A stretch of 64,000 nucleotides of DNA. Source: a bacterium. GTDB lineage: Bacteria; UBA8248. The position numbers and the translations under genes were made by a program. Of the stretch, positions 56,414-63,140 are shown in pieces. Location of the stretch: positions 2,656,001-2,720,000 of the forward strand of contig OZ244799.1 in assembly GCA_965219955.1 (NCBI GenBank), read 5' to 3'. The notes under the pieces were generated by a model. The model searched no databases and was not told the origin of the DNA. It was given only the letters and a program-made list of their open reading frames with translations. Within the stretch, counting starts at the first letter, position 1, and each line of letters begins with the position of its first letter.

Positions 56414-56615
56414 CTAGCTCTTGAATCGCCTGAGATTGGTACTTTTCCCCGGCTCCCGACGGCTCATCCGCTCCAGGGCCAGGCCGGCTTCGAGCACCTC
56501 CTGGTTGAAGCGAAACTCCTCCCAGGAGCAACGCGCCAGCAGGTGCGGGGGGAGGCCATAGGTCTTCGCCTGGAAATGAATGACCGCCAGCAGCTCCTTT
56601 CTACGCCTGCGGAAA
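56414..56615 (-). CDS. Putative frameshift extension of the tail assembly chaperone (gpT-like) or small separate ORF
   Basis: Open +1 frame FRRRRKELLAVIHFQAKTYGLPPHLLARCSWEEFRFNQEVL overlapping the end of the chaperone at GCG-TTT-CCG. Confidence 0.5.
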
Positions 56616-56993
56616 CGCGTCGCCTTCCGGCGCGCCCTCCCCGGGGACAGGGGCCGCCGCCTCGTTCTGAAGCGCCGTGACGGCGGTGAAGATGGCGTCG
56701 GCATCCGCCGGGGCGAGTTCATGGATGCTCAGTTCATCCGGCAGGCATCGGCCCGGTTCCTTATCCGTCATCGAGCCGCGCTCGGGAACGAAGCAGCGCC
56801 TCAGGATGCAGTGCACCCACTCCCCGGTAAGCGCGTATTGCTCCTCCTCGCCCGCGGCGCCATTCGAGACGCCCGCGAACAGCTTGGGATACGCCGCCAT
56901 GTCCAGGAGATTCGGCGCGCGCACGAAACCCTTGAGCCCCGAGGGCAGGGTGATGGGCTTGCGGCCATGATTTCTGTATTCCGATATTTCCAC
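56601..56993 (-). CDS. Putative phage tail assembly chaperone (gpG-like)
   Basis: ~130 aa acidic protein directly after the tail tube; ITLPSG..VRAP start; GTG after GGGAGG; call rests mainly on position. Confidence 0.6.
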   Translation of the reverse strand: MEISEYRNHGRKPITLPSGLKGFVRAPNLLDMAAYPKLFAGVSNGAAGEEEQYALTGEWVHCILRRCFVPERGSMTDKEPGRCLPDELSIHELAPADADAIFTAVTALQNEAAAPVPGEGAPEGDAFPQA

Positions 56994-57057
56994 GATTCCT
57001 CCCGTTCGTTTTCGCTGGATCAAGACTTGACCAGGATGAAGAAGAATCCGCCTTTAT

Positions 57058-57414
57058 TGGCGGCTGTTGAAAAACCCCTCGCCGGGGGCTCCGCCTTTAC
57101 CCCCCTGTTAAGGGGGGTAGGGGGGGTTGCCTTGCAGGGCGAGAGCCTGCGCCGCCGCTTAACCCCCCAACCCCCCTTGTCGAGGTTGTTGAAAAAGTCC
57201 TCTCAAGCGGTGGGGGGTACGATGGTTTTGTAGCAGGACAACCCAAAAGGGTTGTCCTGGCCTCCGTGCCTGTCCTGCCCTCCGTGGTTCTCCTTCGTCA
57301 GGACAGGCACGGAGGCCTGTCCCTACGGTAAACAATTCGATGATCGGGATTCCCTCCCTTCCTCGGGAGGGGTTTTTCAACAAACCCTTGTCAGGGAGGC
57401 TTTTTCAACCACCC
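57058..57414. mobile_element. Two nested MITE-like TIR elements inside the phage-like operon
   Basis: Outer GGCTGTTGAAAAA...TTTTTCAACCACCC flanked by TTAT (57054-57057 / 57415-57418); inner 57182-57387 GAGGTTGTTGAAAAA...TTTTTCAACAAACCC flanked by TTGTC (57177-57181 / 57388-57392). Confidence 0.75.
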
Positions 57415-57426
57415 TTATGGCGGAGG

Positions 57427-58566
57427 CTAGGTGAAGACGATGGCAATCTCGTCATCGCCCGCATCGCGGGCCAGGCGGAAGGGGGCGTCGTAGGTCAGCA
57501 AACCGTCGCGATCCGAAAAGCCCATATCCGCATACTGGCATTTGGGCGCGGTGATGGTGCAGATGTTCCCGGCCCTGTGGCCGACCTGCACTTTCAGGGG
57601 GAGCCTCGCGCCGTCTTCCCAATCGGCGAACACGTCGTCGGTGGCCTTGAGCACGGCCTCGGGGTCGAAGGAACCCGAGGGCGCGCGGCCCGTCACCATG
57701 GCGTTCAAGTGCCCGCCCGATATATTGGCGCTTTGGCGCAAGACCACCTCGTTGTTCATGGCGAAGCGGATGTTCGCCGCGTCGAAATGGAAGCCTCCGA
57801 ACGAAAAGCCGCTCATGAGAACGGGTTCGGGCGCCTGCGCGTCGTAGGACGCGCCGTCAGGGAGGGCTGCGTCGCTCACTTCGAAATCGGCCGCCTCGAA
57901 CTCCCAATCCACCGTGGGAACGCCGTCCAGGGGACAGTTGATGGAAAAACTCCCCATGCAGCCCAGATACATGACTTGTAAACCGTCGATGAACGCCGTC
58001 AGGCAGATCCTCGTATAGCCCGATTTATCGGAGACGGGCGCATAGGCGACGGAGGCGTCCTCGACGACGGTTTCCTTCATCGCGCACGCCTTGAACAGCA
58101 ATCCGTAATCCGGCGCGACGCCCGCTGCGCCCGAACCGCGCAACTCGGTGGTAAAGGAGATCTGCGCGGAGCGCTTTCCGGGAATCGAGGGAAATGGCGA
58201 GAGGCTCGCATCCTTCACCGCGCGCTCCAGCTGCTCCACGCTGATCTCGTGGGCGAAGTTGCCCGCCCGGAACAGTTCAGAAGCCCCGGCGGGCCTGTCC
58301 AGCAGATAGGCCGTGCCCGCAGCGGGGGCGGCGTCCCAGGCGTCGTCCACCGTGAGCGTCTCCGAGGCCGCGTCGAAACCGCTCACCTTTCTTCTTTGAC
58401 CGACGCCCATCCCCCGAATCGTGCGCAGCACCGAGCCGTTCCAGAAACCATCATCCTCTGAGAGCGCGGCGTCCACCAGGGTGGAAGCGTCTGCGGAGTC
58501 CGCCGCCAGTTCCTTTTCTTCCGTCGCGCCGATAGTCTGCCGATCCATCAAAATCGTATCGCCCAT
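57427..58566 (-). CDS. Phage major tail tube protein (siphovirus-type)
   Basis: ISFTTELRGSGAAGVAPDYGLLFKAC, GCMGSFSIN, VTGRAPSGSFDPEA, GNICTITAP..QY, DRDG, GDDEIAIVFT. Confidence 0.8.
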   Translation of the reverse strand: MGDTILMDRQTIGATEEKELAADSADASTLVDAALSEDDGFWNGSVLRTIRGMGVGQRRKVSGFDAASETLTVDDAWDAAPAAGTAYLLDRPAGASELFRAGNFAHEISVEQLERAVKDASLSPFPSIPGKRSAQISFTTELRGSGAAGVAPDYGLLFKACAMKETVVEDASVAYAPVSDKSGYTRICLTAFIDGLQVMYLGCMGSFSINCPLDGVPTVDWEFEAADFEVSDAALPDGASYDAQAPEPVLMSGFSFGGFHFDAANIRFAMNNEVVLRQSANISGGHLNAMVTGRAPSGSFDPEAVLKATDDVFADWEDGARLPLKVQVGHRAGNICTITAPKCQYADMGFSDRDGLLTYDAPFRLARDAGDDEIAIVFT

Positions 58567-58638
58567 ACCTGGTTCTCCTCCGTCTGTTTTTAGGGGCGAA
58601 GGCGCATCCTTCGCCGGATATTATTCTCTGCTCCCGAA

Positions 58639-59172
58639 TCAATCCCGCCGAATCCGCTCTATCGCCCGGAGCCTGATCTCGGCGTAATGGCAAAGCACGT
58701 TCCCGAACGTCCTCAGTTCAATCAGGTCCACCTGCGGAGGCTGAAGACGCTCCAGGGAGCGGACGCGCGGGGCGCCTGATTCATCGAGGAGGCGAAGGGC
58801 TTTATCGTCCCGGAAGCGGTCGCAAATCTCCTCGATCAGCTCCTGAAAGGCCGCCTCGCTGCCCGCCGCGTCCTCGGCGCTCATGATGCCGAACAGCAGG
58901 AACGTGTGGGTTCGCCTAGCGATGCCGGCGGGCGTGAAGCCGCCGGACGCATTCGAGCCGAGCGACGCGGCCTCCTCCCCTGCTCTCTCGCGCGTCAGCA
59001 CCCAGCCCCTGATCTGGGCGAGGCCGCCGCCCGCCTCCCACCGGAACAGGTCCAGGTATTTCCCCAGATCGGCCGACCAGCGCTGATAGGCGTGCACCCG
59101 CCCCGCCTCCGGCACGCTCGATATTTCCGCCAAAACGGCGTCGCCGATTTCCCTGTATCGTGATTTAGCCAC
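58639..59172 (-). CDS. Putative phage tail terminator/completion protein
   Basis: SSVPEAGRVHAYQRW, IRGW, FQELIEEICDRFR, FGNVLCHYAEIRL; position between neck gene and tail tube. Confidence 0.7.
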   Translation of the reverse strand: MAKSRYREIGDAVLAEISSVPEAGRVHAYQRWSADLGKYLDLFRWEAGGGLAQIRGWVLTRERAGEEAASLGSNASGGFTPAGIARRTHTFLLFGIMSAEDAAGSEAAFQELIEEICDRFRDDKALRLLDESGAPRVRSLERLQPPQVDLIELRTFGNVLCHYAEIRLRAIERIRRD

Positions 59173-59674
59173 CGACTCTCCTCGCTATCTCGTCAAGCAG
59201 TTCACGAATGCGCTTATCGACTCGACCCTGGTTTTCCTCCAAGGCGCGCGCGAACATGCGGCGTCCCGGTATTCCGCGCCGGGCGATCGCGCGGGCGACG
59301 AGGAAGGACACCCTCTCGACAGACTCATCGGGCGGCCCCGGTTTGTAGGCAACCCACCGGTACAGCGGCGTACCCTCCCTCCAGGGCGGCATTCCGCCGC
59401 CCGGCCGGCGTCCGAATTCCACGTACCCGGCGTATGGAACGCGCGAGGCGACCACGCCGCGCAACACGCCTGGGTTCTCTCCCTTGATTTCGGTGTAAAT
59501 ACCGCCCCTGAGGTTCCCGCTCACGCCGGCGGGCGTTCGCGTCATGACCTCGCGCCTGAGCATTCCGGTGATCCCGGCCATCGCCTCGCGCGCGAGGCGG
59601 AAAACCTCCGCTTGCTCCCGCGCGATCGGCGGCGCCTCCACAAGGGTTTCCAGCGTTGTATATCGACGACGCAC
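59165..59674 (-). CDS. Phage neck protein, HK97 gp10-like
   Basis: RTPAGVSGNLRGGI, PYAGYVEFGRRPG, VARAIARRGIPGRRMF. Confidence 0.82.
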   Translation of the reverse strand: MRRRYTTLETLVEAPPIAREQAEVFRLAREAMAGITGMLRREVMTRTPAGVSGNLRGGIYTEIKGENPGVLRGVVASRVPYAGYVEFGRRPGGGMPPWREGTPLYRWVAYKPGPPDESVERVSFLVARAIARRGIPGRRMFARALEENQGRVDKRIRELLDEIARRVGG

Positions 59675-59692
59675 CTTGACTCCCCTCCCGGC

Positions 59693-60403
59693 CTAGCGGT
59701 CTTTGGACGCGCCGTGCGTGAAGTACTCGCCGCGCGCCATGGAGAGGAGCGCGTCCCAATCGAGAGACGCGCCCGCCGGACCCGCCACTTCGCCCTCCTT
59801 GCGTCCGAGATGGTTCTGGTATTTGCGCTCGAGTTCCCGGCCCAGGCGCGTGTATTCTCCAGACTTGCTCTGGTAGTCCGCAGAATCCGCGGCGAGGGTC
59901 GGGGTCGAGGACTGGGCGAAGCGGCGGGCCAGGAGGTGACATCCCTCCGCGGCGGCCAGCCACGCCACGGCGGTCAGATCGTTTTCAGGAACGCTCGTGC
60001 GCGCATCGTCGGCCGTGTGCTTTCGCGTATAGAACAGGCGTAGCGTCCGGCCCATTTGAGGGACGAAATACACGAGTCGGAACTTCGCCGCCGGGGTCCC
60101 TTTCGCATAGATGATCCAGGCGCTCCTCCGTAAATAAGAGGGCTTTCTCTCCCCCTGGGGATATTCCACCTCCCGGATGAAGGAGAGGGAATCGTCCCAG
60201 TCTTCGGGCAGGGGAAAATCGAAGGTCTCGCTGTCACCCGCATAATCGGCGAACGAGACGAGCGGCCTGTCCCTGCTGTAGCGCGTGAGCGCGGCGTTAA
60301 CCAGATCGGCGTAGTCCGCCTCCTCGACACCGAACTCCCGGGGCAGCGCGCCCGCCTTCAACAAGACCTTCACTTCCTTGATGATCGTCTGCCTGCCGGC
60401 CAT
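59693..60403 (-). CDS. Putative phage head-tail adaptor protein
   Basis: ALTRYSRDRP, LPEDW, VEYPQG, AVAWLAAA, TLAADSADYQSKSGEY; position after capsid/decoration genes; GAGGAG SD. Confidence 0.7.
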   Translation of the reverse strand: MAGRQTIIKEVKVLLKAGALPREFGVEEADYADLVNAALTRYSRDRPLVSFADYAGDSETFDFPLPEDWDDSLSFIREVEYPQGERKPSYLRRSAWIIYAKGTPAAKFRLVYFVPQMGRTLRLFYTRKHTADDARTSVPENDLTAVAWLAAAEGCHLLARRFAQSSTPTLAADSADYQSKSGEYTRLGRELERKYQNHLGRKEGEVAGPAGASLDWDALLSMARGEYFTHGASKDR

Positions 60404-60444
60404 TTCTGCATTTCTCCTCTGTCTTACCGACTGATGCGGCGGCT

Positions 60445-60786
60445 CTAAGTCTTCAGCGTGAGCTTGGCCTCGAACGTGAACGAAGACTCCTCCCCGCCGA
60501 CGGCCCACACAAGCCTGAGCCAGGGGCCGATGTTCGCGAGCTTGACGAGGGTTTTCCCGGTCGAGGTGATTTCCGCGGATTCGGTATGGACGAAAACCGC
60601 TTCATCGTCCGCCGGCCCGGTCTGCACCTCGAAATCGAGCACCGGCGCGACGCCCGAGACCGCCGTCACGTCGATGAACAAGAGCGCCTCGGTGAAGCGG
60701 CTCACCTCGAACGCCGTGCTGCCTCCCTCGGCGACGCGGGCCGCGGGAGGAGCGAGGACTATGGTGTGGGTTCGCCTGTCGGACAT
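60445..60786 (-). CDS. Small beta-sandwich virion protein (capsid decoration/cement-like)
   Basis: 113 aa, beta-rich LFIDVTAVSGVAPVLDFEVQ...WLRLVWAVGG..SFTF; directly after the capsid gene; GAGGAG SD. Confidence 0.6.
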   Translation of the reverse strand: MSDRRTHTIVLAPPAARVAEGGSTAFEVSRFTEALLFIDVTAVSGVAPVLDFEVQTGPADDEAVFVHTESAEITSTGKTLVKLANIGPWLRLVWAVGGEESSFTFEAKLTLKT

Positions 60787-60818
60787 GGCTTCTCCTCTGA
60801 AGGGCAAACGCCGCGCGA

Positions 60819-62897
60819 CTACTCGGGCGCGCCGCGGTAGAAGCCGCGGAAATCCAGGACGGCGCCGCCGTAGACGTGCCTGATCTTGTAGCGAATCTTG
60901 TCCGCGCTGAACCCGCTGCCGGCCGAGGGGTTGTCCTCGATGAACAGTTCGGGCTCGCGCATGTCGTCCATGAAGCCGATCTCGATGGTGTCCATGAGGC
61001 TCGGGTCGGCGATCATGTACCAGTCGTTCGCTTCGGTGAGTTCCGGCACCCACAAGGGCTCGACCCCCAGGCGGCTGATGAAGCTCGGCTGGTTGGAGTT
61101 TCCGCCCTCGACGACCTTGACGGGCGACTGGGTGACGTCGAACGCCTCTTCGAGCAATTCGGTCGGGTGAATGAGATATTTGGGCCGCGCCTGCGCCGCC
61201 ACCTCGACGCCGTCTTCCCCGTAAAACGTCTGCTGGCCCATCGTCTTGACGCCGGCAATGACGTTGTCGTACGTGAGCTCGTTCGTGGAGGTGTTGTTGT
61301 GGTCGGCGTGGAACAGCGCGTCCCCGTCGTAGATGTCCGCGTTGGACGCCAGGAAATCGAACACGAAGCCGTTCAGGGTGCGCTGGGCCGCGCGGGCGAG
61401 GCGCTGGGGAATCATGCGGATCGCGCCCATGTCGTCGTTCTGGATCATCTCCCAGGTGAGGTCTTCCACGCCGCCGCGCTTGGCCACGGCGTACGTCACC
61501 TCCTCATCCGTCGGGGAGGCAAGCGCCGGGTAGGTGGCCTGTTCGGCGACCGTTTGCAGATCGCCGTAACCGCCGACGCGCACCCGGCGGTTGGTGCGGA
61601 AATCCTTGACGGGAACCACGGCCGAGACGATCTTCTTCCACTGGTGGAACCGCTCGTCCCTGAAATCGCCCAGCATGGCGCGGCGGATGGAATCCCCGAA
61701 CGCCTCGCCCCACGTGCTCGTCTGCAAGGAGGCGGAGAGTCGGCGCACCCCGTTCCAGTCCTCGGCGGCGCGGTGATAGTGGAACGTCTCGGCGAAGAAC
61801 TGGCGCGGGGTGAGGCGGTGGCCCGTGAAATCCTGAAACGCCTCGCTCATGAAGCGGTAGGGCCGCTCTCCGTCTACCGCCTCGTCGCGCGAACTCCAAA
61901 GCCCGTCCAGAGCCGCCCGCTTGCGGTCCGCCTCGTCGCGCATCACCTCGGCACTCGCGCCGAAACCACGGAGCGCTCCGCTCGCCGTGAGTTTTTCCAG
62001 CGTGGCCGCCTCGACCCGGATCGCCTCCTCGATTTCCTCCTCCGTGAAGCTCCCGTCCCTGAACCGGTCGCGGACCTTCTCCTGAACGGCTTCGGGAAGT
62101 GCCGAGGCCGCGAGTTTCCGGGCGAGCATTCCGCGCGCAGCAGCCCCGGCTTCCGTTCCATCCTCCACGGATTCTTCTCCTTTTTTCTTCAGGTCCAGCT
62201 CGAGGCCTGCATCCTCACAGGCAGCGAGGAACTGTTGCGGCGTCCACGCGTCGCCGAGCTTCTTGCCCGATTCGGGCGCCACGCTTTTGAGTTTTTTCCC
62301 GAGTTTTTCGAACATCTTCACCTCCGATTGAATGGAATGAGTGGCGGCGAGACCCAGAATCCCGCCCCCGAGCTTGCCTTTGTGCACGACGTCGACGGAG
62401 TGAACCGCCAGAATCTTTTCGAAATGCAATACGAGCCCGTCGGCCTCTTCGCGGAACTCCGCCTGCGCGAGCACGTCGAAGGAAAAGCCGAAAGGCTCAT
62501 CGAGGCCCCGGGCCAGCGCATCGTGCGCCAGCGCCTGGAACCAGGCCGCTGAGCGCGAAACCGCAAACGTGCTCAAAAGCCCCTCCTCGCCCATGCGGAC
62601 CTCGCGGTGCCAGCCGACCAGGTTCCTGATGTCGGGGCCGCTCGAGGCGGCGTGGTTCGCAAACGCCTGCGCGCCCTCGAACAGGGGAGCGGCCTCGCGC
62701 AGCACGTCGCGGGGCAGGAACCACTCCCCGTCCCTCGAGTAGCCGGCCTTTGCGATCAGCACGTCGAAATCCCAGGCTTCGTCCGGCGGCTGCGCCTCTT
62801 TCGCCACCGCGCGGATGAGGTGGCCATGCAGCCTGAGAGGGTGAGAATCCTTCTGCGCCTCCGCGCGCGCCCAAATGCGGTTCATCCATTTTTTCAA
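60819..62897 (-). CDS. Prohead protease-scaffold-major capsid fusion (HK97 fold, Mu gpT-like capsid domain)
   Basis: N-terminal AGYS..G...VLREAAPLFEG...NH...GFSFD...SVDVV protease-like region; charged helical middle; capsid motifs VKDFR, GGYGDL..VAE, LTWEMIQNDD, LARAAQRT, DGDALFHADHNN, WYMIADP, IRYKIRHVYGG..LDFRGFY. Confidence 0.88.
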   Translation of the reverse strand: MKKWMNRIWARAEAQKDSHPLRLHGHLIRAVAKEAQPPDEAWDFDVLIAKAGYSRDGEWFLPRDVLREAAPLFEGAQAFANHAASSGPDIRNLVGWHREVRMGEEGLLSTFAVSRSAAWFQALAHDALARGLDEPFGFSFDVLAQAEFREEADGLVLHFEKILAVHSVDVVHKGKLGGGILGLAATHSIQSEVKMFEKLGKKLKSVAPESGKKLGDAWTPQQFLAACEDAGLELDLKKKGEESVEDGTEAGAAARGMLARKLAASALPEAVQEKVRDRFRDGSFTEEEIEEAIRVEAATLEKLTASGALRGFGASAEVMRDEADRKRAALDGLWSSRDEAVDGERPYRFMSEAFQDFTGHRLTPRQFFAETFHYHRAAEDWNGVRRLSASLQTSTWGEAFGDSIRRAMLGDFRDERFHQWKKIVSAVVPVKDFRTNRRVRVGGYGDLQTVAEQATYPALASPTDEEVTYAVAKRGGVEDLTWEMIQNDDMGAIRMIPQRLARAAQRTLNGFVFDFLASNADIYDGDALFHADHNNTSTNELTYDNVIAGVKTMGQQTFYGEDGVEVAAQARPKYLIHPTELLEEAFDVTQSPVKVVEGGNSNQPSFISRLGVEPLWVPELTEANDWYMIADPSLMDTIEIGFMDDMREPELFIEDNPSAGSGFSADKIRYKIRHVYGGAVLDFRGFYRGAPE

Positions 62898-63019
62898 GGG
62901 AAACTCCTTTCTCGCTGGCCTTCCAGAAATCCGGCTTCCGGCGATGCGCCGGAGACCGCCGCCCGGAAAAAAAGTAGCGGGCGCAACGGCGACAAACTAG
63001 CGCAAGGAGTCTCGAAGGC

Positions 63020-63140
63020 GGGCCGCGCAAATGCGGGGAAATGCGCATTTGAAGCCTTTTTTTGCGGAATTTTGAATTTGCTAATTGAAAAATTTAAGAA
63101 AATGCGGTAAATTACGGAAAATTCTGGAGTTGCGGACAAT
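63020..63140. promoter_or_regulatory. AT-rich divergent regulatory region between the virion operon and cdaA
   Basis: A/T tracts and repeated TGCGG-like motifs at 63032, 63042, 63063, 63103, 63113, 63123, 63131. Confidence 0.45.

What the first reader, a model, noticed from the sequence alone, without database searches (positions are those of the whole stretch)
56414..62897. Stand-alone, intact phage head-neck-tail-tube operon without packaging or mobility genes: candidate domesticated GTA-like particle module
Seen: seven to eight co-oriented uninterrupted ORFs, most with clear SD sequences or gene overlaps, in canonical siphovirus order (protease-scaffold-capsid fusion, decoration, adaptor, gp10-like neck, terminator, tail tube, chaperone plus extension). 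Composition looks like the host's. The block begins cleanly at its own ~350-bp AT-rich upstream region facing cdaA and ends against a cupin/F420 operon. No terminase or portal lies upstream, no tape measure, tail tip or lysin downstream, and there is no integrase, att repeat or gene debris at either edge. The only insertion is a host MITE that landed intergenically. Known: tailed phages carry portal/terminase just before the head genes and the tape measure just after the chaperones; gene transfer agents such as RcGTA are host-fixed virion genes that can be split over several loci. Inference: a long-resident, selected module, either part of a split GTA from a different phage lineage than RcGTA (fused Mu-gpT-like capsid) or a repurposed capsid/tube nanostructure.
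Basis: partly seen in the sequence, partly recalled or inferred. Interest (0 to 1): 0.85.

Follow-up and report, generated by a model that had tools for sequence, protein, structure and literature searches.

The report
Split, host-fixed phage particle gene set
This intact phage head, neck and tail-tube operon is one of three scattered, vertically inherited operons that together encode a whole tailed-phage particle in a group of uncultured marine, sponge and coral bacteria, which makes it a strong candidate for a new, independently domesticated gene transfer agent.

Summary
The eight co-oriented minus-strand ORFs are real and in siphovirus order. They encode a prohead protease–scaffold–capsid fusion, then proteins of 113, 236, 169 (HK97 gp10-like) and 177 aa, a tail tube, and a chaperone with a +1-frame extension.

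The block is not stand-alone. A terminase large subunit (two ORFs) plus portal operon lies 9.9 kb upstream on the same strand, just past the window end. A tape-measure plus tail-tip operon lies 2.4 Mb away.

- **Distribution:** capsid, portal and one tail gene each occur in the same 20 of 22 species genomes of the genus. The two genomes lacking them have clean empty sites.
- **Synteny:** the cdaA | module | cupin–cofE arrangement is conserved.
- **Selection:** dN/dS is 0.13–0.51, against 0.06–0.19 for most flanking host genes. Module and host trees agree.
- **Regulation:** all three operons carry the same conserved direct-repeat promoter motif.
- **Missing genes:** no integrase, replication or lysogeny genes accompany them.

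The best reading is a multi-locus domesticated particle system of the GTA type, from a lineage unrelated to RcGTA. DNA packaging and transfer are untested. No small terminase or lysis genes were identified, and some species carry disrupted copies.

The parts
63028..63045 (-). Direct-repeat promoter motif CGCATTTCCCCGCATTTG. It sits 130 nt upstream of the capsid start codon.
   Evidence: The motif is conserved in the alignment of 16 genus genomes. The 21-mer that includes it occurs exactly twice in the 4.28-Mb genome: here and 82 nt upstream of the terminase gene. A copy with 2 mismatches lies 63 nt upstream of the tail operon.
62994..62999 (-). Candidate -10 hexamer TAGTTT, 28 nt downstream of the motif.
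   Evidence: The same spacing to TATATT, TATAGT or TATGAT hexamers is seen at the other motif sites. Promoter function is inferred, not shown.
60819..62897 (-). Prohead protease - helical scaffold-like linker - major capsid protein fusion, 692 aa. It has a TTG start with an AAAGGAG Shine-Dalgarno sequence.
   Evidence: Phage_capsid_4, E 6.7e-44 for residues 391-688. NCBIfam scaf_prot_MCP2, 6.8e-54. The N-terminal domain of the model (about residues 17-172, pLDDT 65-90 per ten-residue block apart from two short dips to 43-52) matches the T4 gp21 prohead protease 5jbl, with Foldseek E 7e-6, probability 1.00 and TM-target 0.61. Herpesvirus proteases follow in the list. The gene is intact in 25 of 25 related loci.
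60445..60786 (-). 113-aa protein in the decoration or head-accessory position.
   Evidence: No family was found. It is conserved in 20 of 22 loci, with dN/dS 0.33. The role is inferred from position only.
59693..60403 (-). 236-aa protein in the head-tail adaptor position.
   Evidence: It is 29% identical to the gene after the capsid gene in phage Mae-JY22. It is intact in 23 of 23 loci, with dN/dS 0.13. No Pfam or PHROG family was found.
59165..59674 (-). HK97 gp10-like neck or tail-completion protein, 169 aa.
   Evidence: PF04883, E 3.3e-5, above the cut-off. phrog_5, 1.1e-14. It has the highest dN/dS of the module, 0.51.
58639..59172 (-). 177-aa protein in the tail terminator position.
   Evidence: It is 30% identical to the corresponding Mae-JY22 gene. 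It is intact in 23 of 23 loci, with dN/dS 0.19.
57427..58566 (-). Tail tube protein, 379 aa.
   Evidence: Phage_tube_2, 2.7e-10. phrog_290, 4.9e-19. dN/dS is 0.16. It is intact in 20 of 23 loci. One copy is interrupted by a 1.78-kb insertion (G012), one has an in-frame stop (G029), and the third (L041) aligns over only 41% near the end of its contig.
57024..57426 (.). Intergenic multicopy repeat (MITE-like) insertion between the tube and chaperone genes.
   Evidence: 348 blastn matches in the genome. A depth spike in DNA runs, and a contig of a relative in metatranscriptome run X20 that lacks it. Most relatives have only a 40-50 nt spacer here.
56601..57023 (-). Tail assembly chaperone, 140 aa.
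   Evidence: Position after the tube gene. dN/dS is 0.16. No family was found.
56414..56620 (-). Chaperone extension read in the +1 frame. This is a candidate programmed frameshift at the conserved sequence GCG-TTT-CCN just before the chaperone stop codon.
   Evidence: In 10 of 10 genomes inspected the conserved extension (…ELLA.IHFQAKTYGLPPHLL…) lies in the +1 frame. In 9 of 10 the TTTCC string lies within about 20 nt of the stop codon. The frameshift itself is inferred.

Best explanation
The window block is the central head, neck and tail-tube operon of a chromosomally fixed phage-particle system spread over three operons.

**The three operons**
- Operon 1 lies 9.9 kb upstream, beyond a block of host genes. 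It encodes a lambda-gpA-type terminase large subunit as two translationally coupled ORFs (ATPase, then nuclease), followed by a portal.
- Operon 2 is the block in the window. It encodes the self-processing protease-scaffold-capsid fusion, the neck proteins, the tube and the frameshifted chaperone.
- Operon 3 lies 2.4 Mb away. It encodes the first post-tape-measure tail protein, five further tail-tip proteins and a 561-aa tape measure.

**Proposed mechanism**
All three operons carry the same direct-repeat motif about 28 nt upstream of a -10-like hexamer. I infer that one activator switches them on together. The products would then assemble a tailed, DNA-filled particle. Its genes are scattered over 2.4 Mb, and no replication, integration or lysogeny genes accompany them. 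Such a particle cannot carry its own genome, so whatever DNA it packages is host DNA. That makes it a GTA-like viriform.

**Shown here**
- The gene content.
- The three-locus layout.
- Vertical inheritance.
- Purifying selection.
- Co-presence and co-loss of the loci.
- The shared motif.

**Inferred, not shown**
- Co-regulation of the three operons.
- Particle assembly.
- Packaging of host DNA.
- Transfer to other cells.
For: **The missing parts exist elsewhere in the genome**
- Portal: G000 2728778-2730133 (-), phrog_10963, E 2.1e-47.
- Terminase halves: 2730774-2731832 (GpA_ATPase, 4.6e-18; phrog_675 positions 21-342) and 2730130-2730777 (phrog_675 positions 362-550).
- Tail operon: 302624-309397. 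It includes a 561-aa protein with two GEAGPE tape-measure motifs (the motif name is recalled, not from a call), TMP PHROG matches at 1.2e-7 and an RcGTA_tape domain match at 7e-10.

**Co-distribution**
- Capsid, portal and tail gene each occur in the same 20 of 22 genus genomes.
- Of the 36 other family genomes, 26 have all three, 6 have none, and 4 have only some. Those 4 are all assemblies of 350-540 contigs.

**Clean empty sites**
- G009 and G010 have cofE|(cupin)|cdaA with no module between them.

**Synteny**
- All eight module genes lie in the same order in 21 of 28 loci. Six of the rest are cut by contig ends, and one (L045) has seven of the eight, with no match to the 113-aa gene.
- cdaA is adjacent in 21 of 23 loci.
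- Operons 1 and 3 are syntenic in 7 of 7 complete relatives.

**Selection and trees**
- dN/dS (NG86, against G000): module 0.13-0.51, terminase 0.19-0.21, portal 0.16, tail genes 0.16-0.31. Most host flanks are 0.06-0.19.
- Module and host-flank trees have the same supported groupings and similar branch lengths.

**Terminase**
- The two-ORF layout is identical in 8 of 8 genus genomes.
- Walker A-like, Walker B and nuclease GIDTG motifs are retained.

**Shared promoter motif**
- It lies upstream of all three operons.
- It is conserved in 16 of 16 relatives at the capsid operon, 6 of 7 at the terminase operon and 7 of 7 at the tail operon.

**Origin**
- In genus g8 (G029) portal, capsid, tube, chaperone, TMP and tail tip are still nearly contiguous.
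- In another family of the class the homologous module sits in full TerL-portal-…-TMP clusters with patchy distribution (3 of 7 genomes), as expected of real prophages.

**Other**
- The flanks are host metabolic genes, and no integrase is conserved next to any locus.
- Contigs from two metatranscriptome runs, 90-97% identical, cover 22 of 30 and 13 of 30 bins of the module. This is only a weak hint of expression.
Against: - There are no experimental data of any kind, and the host is uncultured.
- No small terminase, lysis genes or regulator were identified.
- The terminase is of the lambda gpA type, which in phages cuts at cos sites. Packaging could therefore be sequence-specific rather than random.
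- A terminase split between its ATPase and nuclease domains might be non-functional, even though the split is conserved.
- Six of the seven tail-operon proteins have no significant phage family. t331 and t160 have only weak matches to PHROGs of unknown function. Only position, language-model leads and LamG fusions in some homologues support a tail-tip role.
- The system is dispensable in some lineages.
  - It is lost in G009, G010 and four other family genomes.
  - In G012 the tube gene is interrupted by an insertion.
  - In G015 the portal is in three pieces with a stop, the 113-aa gene is truncated and the tail gene is split.
  - In G029 the terminase, the 113-aa gene and the tube gene carry extra frame breaks. 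Some of these may be assembly errors.
- The promoter motif is not specific to the system. The 18-nt pattern has 36 sites in the genome, several next to IS-like, integrase and unrelated metabolic genes.
- The RNA evidence comes from contigs only, with no control on a silent stretch.
Confidence: 0.6

Rival explanations
1. A PBSX-like defective-prophage 'killer particle', or phage-derived bacteriocin. The same three operons would build tailed particles that the host keeps because they kill competing strains. Any packaged host DNA would be incidental and would not be delivered productively.
For: All the evidence for a selected, complete particle gene set applies equally here. Homologues of the 403-aa tail protein in some relatives carry a LamG lectin-like domain, as expected of a receptor-binding, strain-targeting tip. 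The tail operon has somewhat higher dN/dS (0.16-0.31) than the head genes.
Against: Nothing separates this reading from a GTA by sequence. Killing by tailed particles usually needs no capsid, portal or terminase, yet those genes are as conserved here as the tail genes. No lysis or immunity genes were seen next to any locus.
Confidence: 0.15
2. A repurposed capsid and tail nanostructure with a function other than DNA transfer, for example protein or signal delivery to the animal host or to other microbes, or a compartment.
For: The bacteria occur in sponge, coral and marine metagenomes. The split terminase might have lost packaging activity. The tail-tip proteins are restricted to this lineage: 40 homologues in 5.8 billion clusters, and every one that carries a source name is labelled Nitrospinae, Tectomicrobia or 'bacterium'.
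Against: The terminase ATPase and nuclease motifs and the portal are conserved under purifying selection (dN/dS 0.16-0.21). That is hard to explain unless DNA is packaged.
Confidence: 0.1
3. An old, inactive prophage remnant that is simply decaying slowly and has no function for the host.
For: Losses and disrupted copies occur in several species (G009, G010, G012, G015, G029). No lysis, regulator or small-terminase genes were identified.
Against: - All eight module genes are present in 21 of 28 loci, with the capsid intact in 25 of 25.
- dN/dS is 0.13-0.51, similar to the neighbouring housekeeping genes, over divergences down to about 70% protein identity.
- The loci show an all-or-none distribution.
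- The promoter motif is conserved at all three loci.

Neutral decay would have destroyed most of these ORFs.
Confidence: 0.08
4. Part of a still-mobile element, either a functional prophage or a helper-dependent satellite such as a capsid-forming PICI.
For: An integrase gene lies about 3 kb beyond the terminase operon in this genome. The promoter motif also occurs next to integrase and IS-like genes.
Against: - That integrase was not found in the 12-kb loci of 7 relatives.
- The three loci are 2.4 Mb apart.
- The flanks are conserved host genes in about 20 species.
- There is a single copy per genome.
- No close relative was found among 50,697 phage records (best 32% identity) or in IMG/VR with this query.
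Confidence: 0.03

Closest known systems
RcGTA of Rhodobacter capsulatus and the family Rhodogtaviriformidae (definition read in passages of PMC9662315)
   Same: - Genes derived from a caudoviricete.
- The same structural order: TerL, portal, protease, capsid, neck, tube, chaperones, TMP, tail tip.
- Fully endogenised over several loci.
- Vertical inheritance with the host.
- Purifying selection.
- No replication or integration genes.
- Occasional loss in some lineages.
   Different: - No membership by sequence. The only RcGTA family match is a 39-bit domain hit to RcGTA_tape, against a cut-off of 220.
- The capsid is Phage_capsid_4, fused to its protease and scaffold.
- The terminase is gpA-type and split into two ORFs.
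- The host is a bacterium labelled Nitrospinota or Tectomicrobia, not an alphaproteobacterium.
- Regulation appears to use a different direct-repeat motif.
- Function has not been tested.
Microcystis phage Mae-JY22 (PP438414.1) and the TerL-portal-MuF/protease-capsid…TMP clusters in genomes G039 and G044
   Same: - The same fused capsid family: 32% identity over 94% of the protein in Mae-JY22, and 36-38% in G039 and G044.
- Collinear adaptor, gp10-like, terminator and tube genes.
- Portal 31-33% identical to those of G039 and G044.
   Different: - These are complete phage genomes or contiguous phage-like clusters. The TMP sits directly after the chaperones, and a MuF-like or ClpP-like gene follows the portal. 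Mae-JY22 also carries Gam and a methylase.
- Their distribution within genera is patchy.
- The window's system has none of those extra genes, and it is dispersed and fixed.
PBSX-type defective prophages of Bacillus (from recall; no paper read)
   Same: A chromosomally fixed, species-wide set of tailed-particle genes that cannot propagate and that packages host DNA.
   Different: PBSX is one contiguous block with its own repressor and lysis genes, and it acts as a killing particle. Here the genes are in three operons, and no lysis or repressor genes were identified.
NCBIfam NF045541 / NF045540 prohead protease-major capsid fusion proteins
   Same: The C-terminal two thirds of the protein (residues 252-688) match at E 6.8e-54 and 5.4e-44.
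   Different: The scores (183 and 151 bits) are far below the curated cut-offs (525 and 475). The N-terminal protease part does not align to either model. Its protease identity rests on the fold match to T4 gp21.

Membership tests
Gene transfer agent (GTA viriform), six features listed in PMC9662315 | Uses proteins derived from a caudoviricete ancestor to form tailed particles. | tested here: met
   Capsid, gp10-like, tube, terminase, portal and TMP family matches. Particle formation itself has not been observed.
Gene transfer agent (GTA viriform) | Mostly encapsidates random pieces of host DNA. | not testable with these tools
   This needs particle purification and sequencing, or virome read mapping.
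Gene transfer agent (GTA viriform) | Genome fully endogenised in the host genome, often across multiple loci. | tested here: met
   There are three operons, at G000 302624-309397, 2712414-2718897 and 2728778-2731832. All are flanked by conserved host genes.
Gene transfer agent (GTA viriform) | Its own genes cannot be fully packaged into one particle. | tested here: inconclusive
   The loci are 2.4 Mb apart, so one head cannot hold them all. This follows from the layout. Head capacity and the length of packaged DNA are unknown.
Gene transfer agent (GTA viriform) | Mostly vertical inheritance and co-diversification with the host. | tested here: met
   Conserved synteny. The module tree (13 rows) and the host-flank tree (15 rows) share their supported groupings. 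Presence in 20 of 22 genus genomes.
Gene transfer agent (GTA viriform) | Encapsidated DNA is delivered to other cells. | not testable with these tools
   Experimental only.
Rhodogtaviriformidae (RcGTA-like) | Homology of the head-tail cluster genes to RcGTA genes. | tested here: not met
   In the NCBIfam scan of 10 proteins, only t561 matched RcGTA_tape, at 39 bits against a cut-off of 220. The capsid family differs. The neck proteins were not scanned in NCBIfam.
Functional temperate prophage | One contiguous element with integration, lysogeny, replication and lysis modules, patchy among relatives. | tested here: not met
   The system is dispersed over three loci, and no such genes are conserved at the flanks. 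It is near-universal in the genus at one position.
Tailocin (phage-tail-like bacteriocin) | Tail genes only, with no capsid, portal or terminase. | tested here: not met
   Capsid, portal and terminase are present and conserved.

The most novel reading that the evidence does not exclude
This would be an independently domesticated gene transfer agent in uncultured bacteria labelled Nitrospinota or Tectomicrobia that live in sponges, corals and seawater. It would be a further GTA lineage in a phylum where none is known.

It would be built from a Mae-JY22-like siphovirus with a fused protease-scaffold-capsid. It would be driven by a terminase whose ATPase and nuclease are separate polypeptides. 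One activator would switch on its three scattered operons through a shared direct-repeat promoter. It would move random host DNA between symbiont cells inside animal hosts.
Probability: 0.4. Interest if true: 0.85.

Novelty: new variant of a known kind. Interest (0 to 1): 0.72.

Why it matters
Only a handful of independent GTA lineages are known, and nearly all mechanistic knowledge comes from alphaproteobacteria. A separately domesticated system would matter for four reasons.

- It would show that domestication of tailed phages into host-controlled particles recurs across bacterial phyla.
- It offers a natural experiment on how a phage gene set is broken up. The cluster is contiguous in one genus and lies in three operons in another.
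- It raises testable questions about a terminase split between its motor and its nuclease.
- It points to a possible route of gene exchange among uncultured symbionts of sponges and corals.

The shared promoter motif also gives a handle for finding the regulator.

Tried and rejected
- **Pfam searches of the own genome.** Phage_portal and PhageMin_Tail found nothing. The Portal_Mu search also found nothing, but its control rang nowhere, so it says nothing. The portal and tail genes were found only with proteins from distant relatives.
- **My first label 'TMP' for the 381-aa tail protein was wrong.** In G039 and G029 its homologue follows the tape measure. The 561-aa protein is the tape measure.
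- **Mae-JY22 proteins.** Its upstream (candidate packaging) proteins, tape measure and tail proteins have no match in this genome.
- **IMG/VR.** The scan with the capsid found no relative. It only reaches close relatives.
- **Small terminase.** The search upstream of the terminase gene found only a host yajQ-like gene. It is intact in five relatives and degraded here and in G002.
- **The 313-aa ORF between portal and capsid in G029.** It looks spurious. It is unlike MuF and has no match in G000.
- **Sequence searches of the PDB.** Searches with the capsid, the 561-aa protein and a profile of the 403-aa protein gave nothing significant.
- **Structure of the 403-aa tail protein.** The model failed (mean pLDDT 33) and was not searched.
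- **Capsid fusion model.** It is poor overall (mean pLDDT 48.7). Only the N-terminal domain was used.
- **Language-model look-alikes.** The hits for the 403-aa and 381-aa proteins are viral clusters, and some carry Phage-tail_3 on 20-45% of members. These are leads only.
- **Collagen-repeat genes.** Two paralogues carry the same promoter motif and looked like candidate fibres. Their neighbour gene occurs in only 7 of 22 genus genomes, so I do not count them as part of the system. Their PHROG 'tail fiber' hits rest on the collagen repeats.
- **RNA runs.** X19 and X20 gave only short contigs, so nothing can be said about transcript ends or levels, and uncovered bins mean nothing.
- **Literature searches.**
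  - 'gene transfer agent' + Nitrospinota: 1 paper, on desert salt pans (listing and abstract seen; unrelated).
  - 'gene transfer agent' + Tectomicrobia: 0 papers.
  - 'gene transfer agent' + sponge + symbiont: 37 papers, 15 listed. By their titles and abstracts these deal with alphaproteobacterial symbionts, RcGTA or unrelated topics, and none mentions Nitrospinota or Tectomicrobia.
  - A broader search for new or domesticated GTAs: 20 listed, none on this lineage.

Full report
**What is in the window.**

The minus strand between 56414 and 62897 carries eight co-oriented, uninterrupted ORFs.

- **Capsid fusion (692 aa).** Its C-terminal part is a Phage_capsid_4 domain (E 6.7e-44). The protein matches PHROGs and NCBIfam models for prohead protease–major capsid fusions (phrog_4523, 2.2e-50; NF045541, 6.8e-54, well below that model's curated cut-off). 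The Mu-like gpT match is below Pfam's threshold.
- **N-terminal protease.** An AlphaFold model from 16 related sequences is poor overall (mean pLDDT 48.7), but residues 17-172 are mostly confident. That domain matches the T4 prohead protease gp21 (Foldseek E 7e-6, probability 1.00), with herpesvirus proteases next in the list. A helical linker lies between the protease and the capsid domain.
- **Other recognised genes.** The 169-aa protein is HK97 gp10-like. The 379-aa protein is a Phage_tube_2 tail tube.
- **Genes placed by position only.** The 113-, 236-, 177- and 140-aa proteins have no family. Their roles (decoration, adaptor, terminator, chaperone) rest on position and on collinearity with Microcystis phage Mae-JY22. 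That phage's capsid and next three genes match in order at 29-34% identity.
- **Chaperone extension.** The last ORF overlaps the chaperone in the +1 frame. In 10 of 10 genomes inspected the conserved extension is in that frame. In 9 of 10 a TTTCC string lies just before the chaperone stop codon, which fits a programmed +1 shift. This is an inference.
- **Composition and flanks.** GC and GC3 are host-like. The flanks are host genes: cdaA on one side and cupin plus the F420 genes cofE, cofC and cofD on the other.
- **Tube–chaperone spacer.** It is a multicopy repeat. It has 348 matches in the genome, shows a depth spike in DNA runs, and is absent from most relatives.

**What the window hid.**

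The window ends 1.1 kb upstream of the capsid gene. Homologous modules in two genomes of another family of the same class (G039, G044) sit inside full clusters: TerL, portal, a MuF-like or ClpP-like gene, capsid, the neck genes, tube and chaperone. In G039 a tape measure and the next tail gene follow. In G044 only that tail-gene homologue was recognised after the chaperone. I searched the window's own genome with their proteins.

- **Portal.** A homologue lies at G000 2728778-2730133, on the same strand as the module and 9.9 kb upstream of the capsid start (phrog_10963, 2.1e-47).
- **Terminase.** The portal is preceded by a terminase large subunit that reads as two ORFs overlapping by ATGA. 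The first is the gpA-type ATPase (352 aa; PF05876, 4.6e-18). The second is the nuclease part (215 aa; phrog_675 positions 362-550).
- **Host genes in between.** Between the portal and the capsid lie plus-strand host genes. They are cdaA, a dehydrogenase, a luciferase-like oxidoreductase, a UGSC-family gene and one gene with no family match.
- **Tail operon.** A second match led to a seven-gene minus-strand operon at 302624-309397, 2.4 Mb away. Its last gene (561 aa) has two GEAGPE motifs, tape-measure PHROG matches and a weak RcGTA_tape domain match. Its first gene (381 aa) is the homologue of the gene that follows the tape measure in G039 and G029. The other five proteins have no significant family match. 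The 403-aa protein has only 40 homologues in the large protein collection. Those that carry a source name are from MAGs labelled Nitrospinae, Tectomicrobia or 'bacterium'. Four of the 40 are fused to a LamG domain.

**Conservation.**

Record titles label the relatives as Nitrospinota, Nitrospinaceae or Candidatus Tectomicrobia MAGs.

- **Co-distribution.** Among 60 related species genomes, the capsid, the portal and the 381-aa tail gene each occur in the same 20 of 22 genomes of the genus. G009 and G010 lack all three. Of the 36 other genomes of the family, 26 have all three, 6 have none, and 4 highly fragmented assemblies have only some.
- **Empty sites.** G009 and G010 have cofE, then cupin in G010 only, then cdaA, with nothing in between. 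On a tree of flanking host genes G010 is nested among carriers and G009 branches deeply. More distant genera carry the system, so at least two losses are implied.
- **Synteny of the module.** All eight genes lie in the same order in 21 of 28 related loci. Six of the rest are cut by contig ends, and L045 has seven of the eight. cdaA is adjacent in 21 of 23 loci that reach upstream. Cupin is adjacent in 19 of 21 that reach downstream.
- **Synteny of the other two operons.** Both sit between the same host genes in 7 of 7 complete relatives.
- **Terminase layout.** The two-ORF layout is identical in 8 of 8 genus genomes. The Walker A-like, Walker B and nuclease motifs are retained.

**Selection and descent.**

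I computed pairwise NG86 dN/dS against G000, keeping pairs with dS between 0.05 and 1.5. These pairs are not independent.

| Gene or group | dN/dS |
|---|---|
| Capsid | 0.17 |
| Adaptor-position protein | 0.13 |
| Tube | 0.16 |
| Terminator-position protein | 0.19 |
| Chaperone | 0.16 |
| 113-aa protein | 0.33 |
| gp10-like protein | 0.51 |
| Terminase halves | 0.21 and 0.19 |
| Portal | 0.16 |
| Tail genes | 0.16-0.31 |
| Most flanking host genes | 0.06-0.19 |

- **Trees.** A tree of four concatenated module proteins has 13 rows. A tree of five flanking host proteins has 15 rows. Loci without 85% or more coverage of every chosen gene were left out. The two trees share their supported groupings and have similar branch lengths.
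- **Copy number and phage relatives.** There is one copy per genome. No phage record is more than 32% identical, and no IMG/VR relative was found with this query.

**History.**

- In G029, which belongs to another genus of the family, the order is still nearly contiguous and canonical. It runs portal, capsid, tube, chaperone, a 485-aa tape measure, and then the 381-aa and 403-aa homologues. The terminase there lies 10 kb away.
- In the window's genus the cluster has been cut in two places, and the tape measure now sits at the end of the tail operon.
- In the other family the homologous clusters are patchy within genera (3 of 7 genomes). That pattern is what one expects of ordinary prophages.

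**A shared control element.**

- **At the capsid gene.** Aligning the region upstream of the capsid gene in 16 genomes shows a conserved direct repeat, CGCATTTnCCCGCATTTGC, followed about 28 nt later by a -10-like hexamer.
- **In the genome.** The exact 21-mer occurs only twice in the genome. One copy is here, and the other is 82 nt upstream of the terminase gene. A copy with 2 mismatches lies 63 nt upstream of the tail operon.
- **In relatives.** The motif is present upstream of the terminase gene in 6 of 7 relatives and upstream of the tail operon in 7 of 7. G029 has a GAATTT variant twice inside its cluster.
- **Not private to the system.** The 18-nt pattern has 36 sites, almost all intergenic. 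Some lie next to IS-like, integrase, collagen-repeat and metabolic genes. I therefore read it as the site of a regulator with a wider regulon. The three operons share it, but I do not read it as a dedicated switch.

**Expression and habitat.**

- A sponge metagenome run and a coral metagenome run cover the whole stretch with long contigs of close relatives.
- Two metatranscriptome runs give short contigs, 90-97% identical, over 22 of 30 and 13 of 30 bins.
- This is only a hint of transcription. No silent control stretch could be laid.

**Interpretation.**

The gene set is that of a complete tailed, DNA-packaging particle, although the tail-tip roles rest on position. It is fixed in the chromosome at three places, inherited vertically, kept by selection, and lost as a unit. 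No replication, integration or lysogeny genes accompany it. Because its genes lie 2.4 Mb apart, no particle could carry them all.

The definition of GTAs in PMC9662315 (passages read) lists six features.

- **Met here (three):** caudoviricete-derived proteins, endogenisation over several loci, and co-diversification with the host.
- **Follows only from the layout (one):** the system's own genes cannot be packaged together.
- **Needs experiments (two):** packaging of random host DNA, and delivery to other cells.

I put 0.6 on a GTA-like particle system. The main rivals are a PBSX-like killing particle (0.15), a particle with a function other than DNA transfer (0.1), a functionless remnant (0.08) and a still-mobile element (0.03).

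**Against the reading.**

- No small terminase, lysis genes or regulator were found.
- The terminase is of the cos-cutting lambda type and is split.
- Most tail-operon proteins are orphans.
- Several species carry broken copies. G012 has a 1.78-kb insertion in the tube gene. G015 has a broken portal and a truncated 113-aa gene. G029 has extra frame breaks in the terminase, the 113-aa gene and the tube gene. Some of these may be assembly errors.

**Novelty.**

- The system does not belong to the RcGTA family by sequence.
- My literature searches found no report of a GTA or GTA-like element in Nitrospinota or Tectomicrobia.
- I rate it a new variant of a known kind: an independently domesticated, multi-locus particle system with a fused capsid, a split terminase and its own promoter type.

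Noticed in passing
G000:C1:2730130-2731832 (equivalent to window 74130-75832, outside the window): The terminase large subunit is encoded as two ORFs, an ATPase of 352 aa and a nuclease of 215 aa. They overlap by ATGA, with the second ORF in the -1 frame relative to the first. The layout is identical in 8 of 8 genus genomes. The ATPase part also carries a CxxC…CxxC insertion that the single-ORF terminases of G039 and G044 lack.
   Followed up: partly
G000:C1:110338-111015 and 2645165-2645896 (loci L073, L074): Two paralogous acidic proteins with collagen triple-helix repeats. Each has the same promoter motif 64-79 nt upstream, and each is followed by a 190-aa phosphoribosyltransferase-like gene. 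The neighbour gene is found in only 7 of 22 genus genomes, so the pair is probably not part of the conserved system.
   Followed up: partly
G000 genome-wide, for example 204721-206250, 2292236-2293504, 2062031-2062294, 3089964-3090173: A repeated ORF family shares the peptide …MEMKI(I/M)(L/I)F(P/S)VK(F/L)DKF…. It has no Pfam or PHROG match for the one member scanned. It lies about 100-195 nt downstream of copies of the same direct-repeat motif. It may be an unrecognised IS or other mobile-element family.
   Followed up: no
G000:C1:2734841-2735911 (locus L056 14841-15911): A tyrosine integrase gene lies about 3 kb beyond the terminase operon, after an ammonium transporter gene. It was not found in the 12-kb loci of 7 relatives, so it probably belongs to an unrelated island.
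   Followed up: partly
G000:C1:2731833-2732889 (between the terminase gene and amt): Five relatives have an intact 161-aa gene here whose sequence I recognise from recall as yajQ-like. In this genome and in G002 only a frame-shifted remnant is left.
   Followed up: partly
L036 15040-16820 (genome G012): A 1.78-kb insertion carrying an ORF of about 495 aa splits the tail tube gene after residue 236. It is probably an IS element. It was not annotated.
   Followed up: no
window 57024-57426: The MITE-like spacer is composite. A core of about 40 bp has about 267 copies in the genome, while only 8 matches exceed 200 bp.
   Followed up: partly
G000:C1:309727-310953 (locus L055 10727-11953): Two ORFs of 234 and 171 aa lie upstream of the tail operon and have no family. 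They are present in 5 of 8 genus genomes. Their dN/dS is above 1 or they carry stops in relatives, so they are probably not genes or not part of the system.
   Followed up: partly
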